NCBI GenBank assembly: GCA_029258835.1
Contig: JAPDJY010000076.1
Coordinates: 1 to 52,812, forward strand
DNA: 52,812 bases
Direction: 5' to 3'
Source: Thermoproteota archaeon
GTDB lineage: Archaea > Asgardarchaeota > Jordiarchaeia > Jordiarchaeales > Freyrarchaeaceae
The position numbers were made by a program, and so were the translations under genes. How positions within the stretch are numbered: the stretch's first letter is position 1; every line of letters begins with the position of its first letter. The notes below the pieces were generated by a model. It did not search any database and was not told the origin of the DNA. It was given only the letters and a program-made list of their open reading frames with translations. Shown here in pieces: positions 3,118 through 17,970 of the stretch.

Positions 3118-3410
3118 AAAGCCACCTCACAAGCTTTAAACCTAAAATCCTCCTTCACACCTTAACAAGCATTAACAATTACAATTTGGTTTTAGTATTA
3201 TTTAAGGATTAACTGGAGTTCTCGGAGGAGGACACTACCCCCTCCACATTACCCTTAAACAACTGGTGAAGGGTGAACGCAACCAACATGGCAGATCTTT
3301 ATGGGGGGGAAGCGAGTTCGTTGGTGGCTGCGTGAGAGGAAGCCTGTTTCAGGCCGGAGGAGAGATCATAAGACGTGTGAACTCCAAAAAAGGAGGGTGG
3401 GTGATGGATG

Positions 3411-5019
3411 TCAGGAGGCGTCGACCGTTTTCACGGTTTCCTCGCTGGCGACTCCTCTCCGCCTCCTCCGCCATTCCTCAACTGGAATGCTGAACTGCTT
3501 CTCAACCATTGGCCGGTGGATCGTGTTGTAGGTACAGAATGGGATTATCCGCCCATCAGGTGTGCCGTAGTGGATAACGCAGCGCTCAACTCTGGCAAGG
3601 TCGAGGTTGTATGGATCCTGAAAGTGCATCATCCCGATCAAGATTACGCTACGCATGAAGTCTCCTAGCGCGTTATAGTTCGCTGAGGTAAGGACGCGCC
3701 TGAAGAGGCTGAACATGAGACCCTTCTTCTTGAAGAAGCGGAGCATTCCCATGGCAACTCTCAATCTGCCTTTAAGCTTCGAGAACCACCCGCCCTGAAA
3801 CTCCTCAGCACACTTCTCGAAGGTCTCCATGATCCTGTCGACGTCGACGTAATGGGTGATTGGGTAAAACTCGCCGTCACCCTCCACCCGGATGAAAGTT
3901 GCCATGCCGCAGTGCACGTGGTTGCCGAACTCCACCATGGGTCTGCCGAAGTAGGCTGAGAGAGCCCTAGACAATGGGGTCGGGGTCGTACAGGGGTAGA
4001 AGTCGGACGTCTTGATGCGCCCTCCAGTCTGCTCCTCGCAAGCCTTGATGACTTCTGGGATCGTTATCCGCATCTCCATCCTTTTGGATTCATCGATCCT
4101 CCCTGTGATGCTTACTGGCTGGAAGATTATGCCCCGCACCACGTCATAGTTCTCAACGGCAAAACGTATGATATCGCCTATCTGATCATCGTTAACGCCC
4201 CTAACAACCGTTGGGACCAGTACTATGGAGTGGAGGCCCGCCCTACGGCAGTTCTCGATAGCCTTAAGCTTTAACGGGAGAAGGTTGCGTCCTCTAGCCT
4301 CAAGGTACGGCTCAGGCGTCACACCGTCAAACTGCATGTACACCGTGCTGAGGCCAGCCTCCACCAGCTCACGGCAGTAATCAACGCTCTCTGCAAGCTT
4401 CAAAGCATTAGAGGCGATCTCAACGTGGGCGAACCCGACCTCCCTAGCCATCCTTATAAGCTCAGGGAGGTCCTCCCTGACGGTAGGTTCTCCACCAGCA
4501 AACTGAACAGCGGGGGCTGGGACGGGAGCATTACGTCTGAAGTTTTCAAGCATGAACCTAATCTGCTCGGCGCTGGGCTCATACACATAACCAGAAACCG
4601 CTGCGTTAGCAAAACATATTACCCCACGCGGAACCCGGATGGAAGTAAGCGTCCTCCGGGCAACATCGCGTGTTTGGGCATCGCAGATTACACCGGTTCG
4701 TTACATCGATGAGCGCCAGTGCAGTGTAGGTTTTATGGTTTGTACATAGCCCACAGTCAAAGGGGCATCCTTGACGGGCTTCCGTTCGGGGGTTTTCTAT
4801 TTTAACCCTGTTATAATTCCACTTTGTGACTTTCCTGTAGAGTTCCGCATCTCCCCAGTACACGTCCGTCACCTGTCCGTGTTCAGGGCAGGTTTTCGTT
4901 ATCATTACCTTCCCGTCTTCCTCGTACACTGTCGCATCTATTACTTTCATACACTCGGGGCATATGCTCTTGGTCTGAAAGGGGAGCTCAGGGAATTGCT
5001 CGTGCGCAAGCCTTTGCAT
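3411..5019 (-). CDS. tes: Tetraether lipid synthase (Tes/GDGT-MAS, MJ0619 family radical SAM), join(5019..4674,4618..3411), 517 aa after intron removal
   Basis: SICPEC..KTCPEHG, CPFDCGLCxxH, restored CNLRCPICFAN, QFAGGEPT, HCGMA, MMHFQDPYNLD..RCVIHY..IIPFCTYN; 346+1208 nt = 518 codons including stop. Confidence 0.9.
4619..4673 (-). other. 55-nt bulge-helix-bulge (archaeal-type) intron in tes mRNA
   Basis: Central helix GCCC/GGGU, 3-nt bulges AAA and AAU, internal stems CACGCG/CGCGUG and CCCGGA/UCCGGG; cleavage after the 2nd nucleotide of each bulge restores frame and motif. Confidence 0.85.
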
Positions 5020-5281
5020 TTTACCACCACCTTTAGTGGTGTTTTAAAGAGATTTCACTTAGATGCTTATTTAATATTTTCCCGACGAAACATAATTGGA
5101 ATGGTATGAACCCGGGTTGGAAGGCTTCTTTACCAAGCTGGTTTTGCAGTGCTAGAAGAAGTGCTGGGAGGACGGGAAAAGGTAGTCTTAGGTAGCATGA
5201 ATGGTGGCGGTTCAACCCAGCAGAGCCTAAATGTGGCTGTCCGCCCCTTTTAACTATTTCATTAACGTTTCTAAAATGCTG

Positions 5282-17817: not shown

Positions 17818-17970
17818 TGGCGCGGGGGGCGGGATTGCCACCTTAGAGCAGGATGCTCCCTTGGTTTTGAACCCGCGCTCCCCCATGGGGAACCGGCTTC
17901 GCTCCAAAACGCTGGCTTAGCAGGCCGGCACCTGTCGGCAGAATGTATAACCGGGCTTGGTTACCCCCGC
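17818..17970 (-). tRNA. tRNA-Ser(GCT) with three introns (17934-17947, 17899-17917, 17835-17865), CCA encoded
   Basis: Acceptor stem GCGGGGG/CCCCCGC + G-CCA; anticodon arm CCGGC-CTGCTAA-GCCGG; long variable arm TCCCC/GGGGA; T arm GCGGG-TTCAAAT-CCCGC after splicing; mature length 89 nt; TTTAAA box about 30 nt upstream. Confidence 0.9.

What the first reader, a model, noticed from the sequence alone, without database searches (positions are those of the whole stretch)
4607..4685. Bulge-helix-bulge intron inside the radical-SAM motif of the tetraether lipid synthase mRNA
Seen in sequence: ORFs 4606-5019 and 3411-4586 are two halves of one Tes/GDGT-MAS gene. On the minus strand the junction reads UGCCC-AA|A-CACGCG...CCCGGA...UCCGGG...CGCGUG-GGGU-AA|U-AUGUUUUGC. 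This gives a 4-bp helix (GCCC/GGGU) with two 3-nt bulges on opposite strands closing a GC-rich hairpin; the outer exon-exon helix is short (about 2 bp, plus 2 after a bulge). Cutting after the second nucleotide of each bulge removes 55 nt (4619-4673) and yields TGC CCA ATA TGT TTT GCT AAC, restoring CNLRCPICFAN (CxxxCxxC) and a 517-aa ORF. Established: EndA cuts and RtcB ligates BHB introns in tRNA/rRNA; the well-known protein-gene case is crenarchaeal cbf5. Inference: this is a spliced mRNA intron in a membrane-lipid gene of a probable Asgard archaeon, which pipelines would miscall as a pseudogene. I know of no description of it but cannot check the literature.
Basis: partly seen in the sequence, partly recalled or inferred. 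Interest (0 to 1): 0.97.

Follow-up and report, generated by a model that had tools for sequence, protein, structure and literature searches.

The report
tRNA-type intron in Asgard tes gene
A 55-base insert that breaks the only membrane-spanning-lipid synthase gene of an Asgard archaeon has the shape and cut sites of an archaeal tRNA-type intron, and it is very probably spliced out of the messenger RNA, because essential genes in the same genome carry similar inserts.

Summary
On the minus strand, a 55-nt insert (4619-4673) splits the genome's single tes/GDGT-MAS gene inside CxxxCxxC. Cutting after the second nucleotide of each 3-nt bulge gives a 517-aa ORF (CNLRCPICFAN) that aligns without a gap to the solved M. 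jannaschii enzyme.

The bulge-helix-bulge (BHB) shape alone is common by chance. The evidence is that its cut sites coincide with the exact repair (about 3e-5).

The insert is in independent metagenome assemblies and in a 98.4%-identical strain. Between the two strains the exons show 19 synonymous and 5 nonsynonymous changes (neutrality P = 5e-9). The only intron change lies in the apical loop.

The genome is Jordarchaeia (Asgard). It has two EndA paralogues and RtcB. I verified the same kind of insert in cbf5, kae1, EF-1alpha and aIF2gamma. The cbf5 insert splits the same catalytic Asp codon as the published crenarchaeal intron and covaries across 14 genomes.

About 195 other tes loci, including relatives at 69-83% identity, lack the insert, so it is confined to this lineage. 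Removal from RNA is not shown: the RNA contigs missed the junction.

This scan has noted BHB mRNA introns before, in this and other Asgard genomes. I found no paper describing them outside cbf5.

The parts
4674..5019 (-). tes exon 1: Zn-ribbon domain and the start of the radical-SAM domain, ending ...CNLRCP plus the first base of the Ile codon
   Evidence: PF23545 E = 2e-21. Aligns to 7TOL residues 23-124. Spliced ORF built.
4619..4673 (-). 55-nt bulge-helix-bulge intron candidate. It is not a multiple of 3, and unspliced reading stops at TAA 4608-4606.
   Evidence: Present in independent DNA contigs and in JGI contigs L040, L041 and L045. No other copy in the genome.
3411..4618 (-). tes exon 2: the rest of the CxxxCxxC motif (..ICFAN) and the radical-SAM and C-terminal domains
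   Evidence: E = 1.2e-123 to 7TOL residues 135-516. PF04055. 16 synonymous and 3 nonsynonymous changes versus the second strain.
4676..4679 (-). 5' strand of the central 4-bp helix H (GCCC, exon 1)
   Evidence: Pairs with GGGU at 4621-4624.
4673..4675 (-). 5' 3-nt bulge AAA. The predicted cut lies between 4674 and 4673.
   Evidence: The rule of cutting between the 2nd and 3rd bulge nucleotide is as in PMC2738675.
4621..4624 (-). 3' strand of helix H (GGGU, 3' end of the intron)
4618..4620 (-). 3' bulge AAU. The predicted cut lies between 4619 and 4618. In the MFE fold this is part of a 7-nt loop.
4625..4672 (-). Intron-internal helix h' (CACGCG/CGCGUG) closing a second GC-rich hairpin (GCCCGGAGGA...UCC.UCCGGGU)
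   Evidence: MFE equals centroid in the 96-nt and 221-nt folds. The only strain difference (4645) lies in the apical loop.

Best explanation
The 55-nt insert is a bulge-helix-bulge (tRNA-type) intron in the tes pre-mRNA.

Proposed mechanism (inferred):
1. The transcript folds so that exon GCCC pairs with intron GGGU between two 3-nt bulges, propped by a strong intron hairpin and a long but interrupted exon-exon helix.
2. The splicing endonuclease EndA, probably an (alpha-beta)2 heterotetramer made from the two paralogues in this genome, cuts after the second nucleotide of each bulge.
3. RtcB joins the exons and probably circularises the intron.
4. The mature mRNA encodes a 517-aa tetraether lipid synthase with an intact CNLRCPIC radical-SAM motif.

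Shown here: the geometry, the exact in-silico repair, presence of the insert in DNA of independent samples, purifying selection on both exons, presence of the enzymes, and the same insert type in essential genes of this genome.

Inferred, not shown: the cleavage and ligation of tes RNA itself.

The intron is confined to this species-level lineage, so it is probably a recent gain.
For: 1. Excision by the BHB rule gives a 517-aa ORF that is collinear without a gap with PDB 7TOL GDGT-MAS and restores CxxxCxxC.
2. The MFE and centroid folds contain the BHB core. In a 221-nt context z = -4.5 and 0 of 200 shuffles fold as well.
3. The motif's cut sites coincide with the exact repair, at roughly 3e-5 given the genome-wide hit rate.
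4. DNA contigs from two other studies span the insert without a gap, and no joined form appears. JGI contigs from two samples carry it at 98.4% identity.
5. Between the insert-bearing strains there are 19 synonymous and 5 nonsynonymous changes, dN/dS about 0.075, with neutrality rejected at P = 5e-9. The single intron change is in the apical loop and creates a stop in the read-through frame.
6. This is the only tes copy in a 94.7%-complete genome.
7. Two EndA paralogues are present, one with the Y/H/K catalytic signature, together with RtcB. The paper abstract (PMC5829648) states that only (alpha-beta)2 and epsilon2 EndAs cut non-canonical motifs.
8. The same architecture and cut rule repair cbf5 (27 nt), kae1 (14 nt), EF-1alpha (43 nt, P-loop) and aIF2gamma (30 nt, P-loop) in this genome.
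9. The cbf5 intron splits the catalytic Asp codon, as the published crenarchaeal intron does. It is conserved with covarying helices in 14 genomes.
10. tRNA genes here are heavily interrupted.
Against: - No RNA evidence exists for the junction.
- There is no covariation for the tes intron itself, because only two near-identical strains carry it.
- The outer exon-exon helix next to the 3' bulge is only 2 bp, and the MFE fold makes the 3' site part of a 7-nt loop rather than a strict 3-nt bulge.
- At 55 nt it is longer than the other mRNA inserts I verified (14-43 nt).
- The insert is absent from every relative at 83% identity or less, which would also fit a recent disruptive insertion.
Confidence: 0.87

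Rival explanations
1. A recently disrupted pseudogene: a 55-nt insertion that happens to form a hairpin killed tes in this lineage, and the transcript is never repaired.
For: The insert is absent from about 195 other tes loci, including relatives at 69-83% identity. Another Jordarchaeum tes carries plain frameshifts. No junction RNA was seen.
Against: dN/dS is about 0.075 between two strains that both carry the insert, and neutrality is rejected at P = 5e-9. There are no other stops or frameshifts in 1.55 kb. This is the only tes copy. The chance that a random insert has BHB cut sites at the exact repair point is about 3e-5. Essential genes carry the same kind of insert.
Confidence: 0.05
2. 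The message is not spliced but recoded during translation: ribosomes hop over the 55 nt, as in phage T4 gene 60, or the two halves act as separate polypeptides.
For: A stable hairpin follows the break, and a stop lies downstream in the unspliced frame. The unspliced N-terminal fragment still has Cys-x3-Cys-x4-Cys-Cys.
Against: There is no matching take-off and landing codon pair around the gap. The second strain changes the GTG start of the C-terminal ORF to GTC and puts a stop in the intron read-through. A split after the first strand of the radical-SAM barrel without the cluster loop is unlikely to work. BHB geometry and the genome-wide pattern explain the insert without any new mechanism.
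Confidence: 0.04
3. An assembly or binning artefact: the insert is not in the organism's DNA.
For: The genome is a 91-contig metagenome bin with 6% contamination.
Against: Independent assemblies from other studies and two JGI samples contain the insert at the same place with no gap or joint.
Confidence: 0.01

Closest known systems
cbf5 pre-mRNA BHB intron of Crenarchaeota (Aeropyrum, Sulfolobus, Desulfurococcales; PMC2738675)
   Same: It is a short insert in a protein-coding gene with often relaxed BHB geometry. The cut lies between the 2nd and 3rd bulge nucleotide. A hetero-oligomeric EndA is present in the host. The insert breaks a catalytic motif. It shows a gain-and-loss pattern among relatives. 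This genome carries the cbf5 intron at the same Asp codon.
   Different: The host gene is a membrane-lipid radical-SAM enzyme rather than an RNA-modification enzyme. The phylum is Asgard (Jordarchaeia). The insert is 55 nt and confined to one species-level lineage. Splicing has not been verified experimentally.
[quoted passage not shown]
   Same: The motif and presumed enzymes (EndA, RtcB) are the same, and relaxed motifs are tolerated. The same clade has very high intron loads and repeated gains. tRNA-Ser in this window needs three excisions before it is recognised.
   Different: The substrate is an mRNA. The exon half of the motif is constrained by coding sequence rather than by tRNA structure. 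Those papers do not mention mRNA introns.
IRE1/RtcB-type unconventional splicing of HAC1/XBP1 mRNA in eukaryotes
   Same: A protein-only endonuclease cuts at paired stem-loops in an mRNA, RtcB-type ligation follows, and removing a short intron changes the reading frame.
   Different: The endonuclease and recognition motif differ. That system is a regulated stress switch, and no evidence of regulation exists here. This comparison rests on my own knowledge and was not tested.

Membership tests
Archaeal BHB (EndA/RtcB-spliced) intron | [quoted passage not shown] | tested here: met
   GCCC/GGGU lies between AAA and AAU. The MFE fold adds a U-A pair and enlarges the 3' bulge to a 7-nt loop, so the motif is relaxed.
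Archaeal BHB (EndA/RtcB-spliced) intron | Flanking helices h' (intron) and h (exon) | tested here: met
   h' is 6 bp plus a second hairpin. h is only 2 bp next to the bulge, followed by a long interrupted exon-exon helix. The verified cbf5 intron of this genome has no outer helix at all.
Archaeal BHB (EndA/RtcB-spliced) intron | Cutting between bulge nucleotides 2 and 3 and joining the exons yields the functional product | tested here: met
   The result is a 517-aa ORF with CNLRCPICFAN restored, collinear without a gap with 7TOL. The cut rule is as stated in PMC2738675.
Archaeal BHB (EndA/RtcB-spliced) intron | Host encodes the splicing endonuclease and RtcB ligase | tested here: met
   Two PF01974 paralogues score over the cut-off and one PF01139 gene has E = 1.6e-182.
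Archaeal BHB (EndA/RtcB-spliced) intron | Intron absent from mature RNA (junction reads, circular intron) | tested here: inconclusive
   Metatranscriptome contigs X22 and X23 cover only 3377-3979 of exon 2, and nothing crosses the junction. No full-length near-identical Tes is in the protein collection.
Archaeal BHB (EndA/RtcB-spliced) intron | Structure conserved through compensatory changes in relatives | tested here: inconclusive
   Only two strains carry the tes intron, with one apical-loop change. For the cbf5 intron of the same clade, covariation is clear in 14 genomes.
Tes / GDGT-MAS tetraether lipid synthase | N-terminal Zn ribbon plus a radical-SAM domain with CxxxCxxC, and full-length similarity to the characterised enzyme | tested here: met
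   PF23545 and PF04055 both match. E = 5e-40 and 1.2e-123 to 7TOL over residues 23-124 and 135-516. The motif is restored only after excision. Enzyme activity was not tested.

The most novel reading that the evidence does not exclude
The tes intron may be one recent gain within a genome-wide system of endonuclease-spliced introns in ordinary protein-coding genes of Jordarchaeia, including EF-1alpha, aIF2gamma, kae1 and cbf5. That would mean close prokaryotic relatives of eukaryotes routinely interrupt and splice mRNAs, and still acquire new mRNA introns.

A weaker extension is that splicing of tes gates the synthesis of membrane-spanning lipids.
Probability: 0.7. Interest if true: 0.9.

Novelty: new member of a known kind. 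Interest (0 to 1): 0.77.

Why it matters
In the papers I could search, splicing of an archaeal protein-coding message by the tRNA endonuclease is confirmed only for cbf5.

- **Wider scope:** here the same intron type interrupts a membrane-lipid enzyme, and in the same genome core translation factors, in an Asgard archaeon. The mechanism therefore extends to a new phylum and to many genes.
- **Annotation errors:** pipelines will call such genes pseudogenes or split ORFs. That distorts metabolic reconstructions, for example whether a lineage can make GDGT lipids used as palaeoclimate proxies.
- **Intron gain:** the insert is restricted to one lineage, which offers a datable example of intron gain in a coding gene near the root of eukaryotes.

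Tried and rejected
- **RNA evidence:** no RNA holder was listed for the junction stretch. Two metatranscriptome runs found with the whole gene covered only part of exon 2 when laid, so they cannot test splicing.
- **Genome-wide de novo search:** I looked for further mRNA introns by combining BHB hits with open-frame fusion, with and without a codon-usage filter. Real cuts and frame-shifted control cuts gave the same counts (4,072 vs about 4,100; 1,323 vs about 1,250; 1,648 vs about 1,585). Adjacent genes swamp the signal, so I gave no genome-wide count and verified single genes by conserved motifs instead.
- **Covariation on the tes intron:** about 195 tes loci from relatives, metagenomes and species genomes were screened, and none outside this lineage has the insert.
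- **Other short Tes fragments:** the Thorarchaeota, Bathyarchaeota and Jordarchaeum fragments turned out to be contig ends, a truncated remnant beside a transposase (L044), or insert-free frameshifts (L042, L043, L200, L204), not introns.
- **Spliced or intron-less protein:** the search found nothing above 81% identity.
- **Mobile-element origin:** the genome holds no second copy of the insert.
- **Rfam and ARAGORN:** neither found anything in the window as it stands.

Full report
**Observation.** ORF 4606-5019 (137 aa) carries the HMPTM/Tes zinc ribbon, and ORF 3411-4586 (391 aa) is a radical-SAM domain lacking its first 26 profile positions. The N-terminal half aligns to residues 23-124 of the solved M. 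jannaschii GDGT-MAS (PDB 7TOL), ending ...CNLxCP. The C-terminal half starts at residue 135, with E = 1.2e-123. Removing 4673-4619 (55 nt) joins them into a 517-aa ORF reading CNLRCPICFANAAVSGYVYEPS. Exactly ten residues bridge the gap, as in 7TOL. RNA folding of 96 nt gives the proposed core: UGCCC/GGGUA, an AAA bulge, CACGCG/CGCGUG and an inner hairpin. In a 221-nt context the MFE equals the centroid and keeps this core. It adds a long interrupted exon-exon helix, with z = -4.5 and 0 of 200 shuffles folding as well. The 3' site is relaxed. The outer helix next to the AAU bulge is 2 bp, and the MFE fold prefers a 7-nt loop.

**Is it more than chance?** The shape alone is not. A scanner for a 4-bp helix H, 3-nt bulges, an inner helix of at least 6 bp and an outer helix of at least 2 bp finds about 14,500 hits in the 2.72-Mb genome, or about 1.1e-5 per position and length. 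What is improbable is the coincidence. Only three equivalent 55-nt deletions give the exact repair, because of the AA repeat at the borders. The BHB rule picks one of them, at roughly 3e-5.

**Is the insert real DNA?** Contigs from two metagenomes of other studies span it without a gap or joint: X3 covers 4585-4798 and X6 covers 4409-5100. JGI contigs from two samples (L040/L045 and L041) carry it in a strain 98.4% identical over 1.8 kb. It has no second copy in the genome.

**Is the gene alive?** Between the two insert-bearing strains, the spliced frame shows 19 synonymous and 5 nonsynonymous differences. One of the five is ATG to GTG at the start codon. dN/dS is about 0.075, and neutral evolution is rejected at P = 5e-9. 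The only difference inside the insert (4645) lies in the apical loop and turns TAC into TAG in the read-through frame, so the insert is not constrained as protein. The other strain also changes GTG 4586-4584, the start of the stand-alone C-terminal ORF, to GTC. tes is the only copy in a 94.7%-complete genome.

**Who is it, and does it have the machinery?** The nearest named relatives are Ca. Jordarchaeales (83%), Jordarchaeum, Freyarchaeota and Atabeyarchaeum, which places the genome in Asgard. It encodes RtcB and two EndA paralogues. One is 190 aa with the Tyr/His/Lys signature and the other is divergent, which fits the (alpha-beta)2 type. Only (alpha-beta)2 and epsilon2 EndAs cut non-canonical motifs (PMC5829648 abstract). 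Two-paralogue EndA was reported in 44 of 60 Asgard genomes (bioRxiv 10.64898/2026.10.13.758758). tRNA genes here are mostly over-long. The window's tRNA-Ser(GCU) is recognised only after three excisions.

**Internal positive controls.** cbf5 on contig C27 is split by a 27-nt insert with H = CACU/GGUG, bulges AGA and AAA, an 8-bp hairpin and no outer helix. The same cut rule restores GHAGTLDPKVTG. The cut falls between the first and second base of the catalytic Asp codon, which is exactly where the experimentally studied crenarchaeal cbf5 intron lies. That paper also states the cut is between bulge residues 2 and 3 (PMC2738675). The insert is present at this codon in 14 genomes from at least four families, at lengths of 27-41 nt, always repairing GTLDP(K/R)VTG. 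Both helices covary.

Following leads from earlier notes of this scan, I verified three further cases myself:
- kae1 carries a 14-nt insert, C27:22172-22185, restoring GPG-L-GPCL.
- EF-1alpha carries a 43-nt insert, C27:28832-28874, inside GHVDHG|KST.
- aIF2gamma carries a 30-nt insert, C27:26080-26109, at the homologous GHVDHG|KTT.

EF-1alpha and aIF2gamma both have H = CGGC/GCCG and A-rich bulges. These genes cannot be pseudogenes, so this organism must remove such inserts from mRNA.

**Distribution.** The four genomes of the sister genus have an uninterrupted tes of 525-527 aa. So do full-length relatives at 81, 78, 71 and 69% identity. Of about 195 tes loci screened, only this lineage has the insert. 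Other multi-frame cases are insert-free frameshifts. The intron is therefore lineage-specific, most simply a recent gain, and covariation cannot be tested on it.

**What is not shown.** RNA contigs cover only exon 2, so excision from tes RNA is inferred. Attempts to count mRNA introns genome-wide from frame fusion failed against controls.

**Literature.** In the searchable library, archaeal pre-mRNA splicing is confirmed only for cbf5, with other genes merely predicted (PMC2738675). Asgard papers report extreme tRNA-intron loads but no mRNA introns. Subscription journals are not covered. This scan's own notes record similar mRNA introns in this and other Asgard genomes, some with reported spliced RNA. 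I treat those as leads, not evidence.

**Verdict.** This is a genuine BHB intron in tes mRNA (confidence 0.87). It is a new member of the cbf5-type class, and is notable for its host gene, its phylum, its recent origin and the genome-wide company it keeps.

Noticed in passing
G000 contig C27:28832-28874 and C27:26080-26109 (minus strand; loci L236, L239): EF-1alpha and aIF2gamma carry BHB inserts (43 and 30 nt) at the homologous P-loop position GHVDHG|K. They share an identical central helix CGGC/GCCG and the 5' bulge AAU. This could be parallel gain at a favoured site or an old shared intron.
   Followed up: partly
G000 C27:11929-11955 (L038/L205) and loci L206-L216, L228, L230, L232: The cbf5 intron splits the catalytic Asp codon (G|AC), the same position as the published crenarchaeal cbf5 intron. 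It is conserved with covarying helices in 14 Asgard genomes at lengths of 27-41 nt.
   Followed up: yes
G000 C27:22172-22185 (minus strand): kae1 carries a 14-nt micro-insert with a 9-bp outer helix and almost no inner helix. Excision restores ...AFSQGPGLGPCLR...
   Followed up: partly
window 17818-17970 (minus strand): ARAGORN detects tRNA-Ser(GCU) only after removing three proposed introns (17934-17947, 17899-17917, 17835-17865). The result is a clean 89-nt type II tRNA.
   Followed up: yes
window 4658-4684 (minus strand): The 5' part of the tes intron (GCGAUG-UUG-CCC) repeats the exon sequence just upstream (GCGAUGCCC). This may hint at origin by local duplication, but it is a post hoc observation of weak significance.
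   Followed up: no
L042:3001-4611 and L043:2304-3914 (Ca. Jordarchaeum sp.): tes in another Jordarchaeum is broken by two insert-free frameshifts near residues 168 and 410. The same breaks appear in an NCBI MAG and in a Logan assembly. It could be a pseudogene or a shared error.
   Followed up: no
That fits the Asgard assignment.
   Followed up: no
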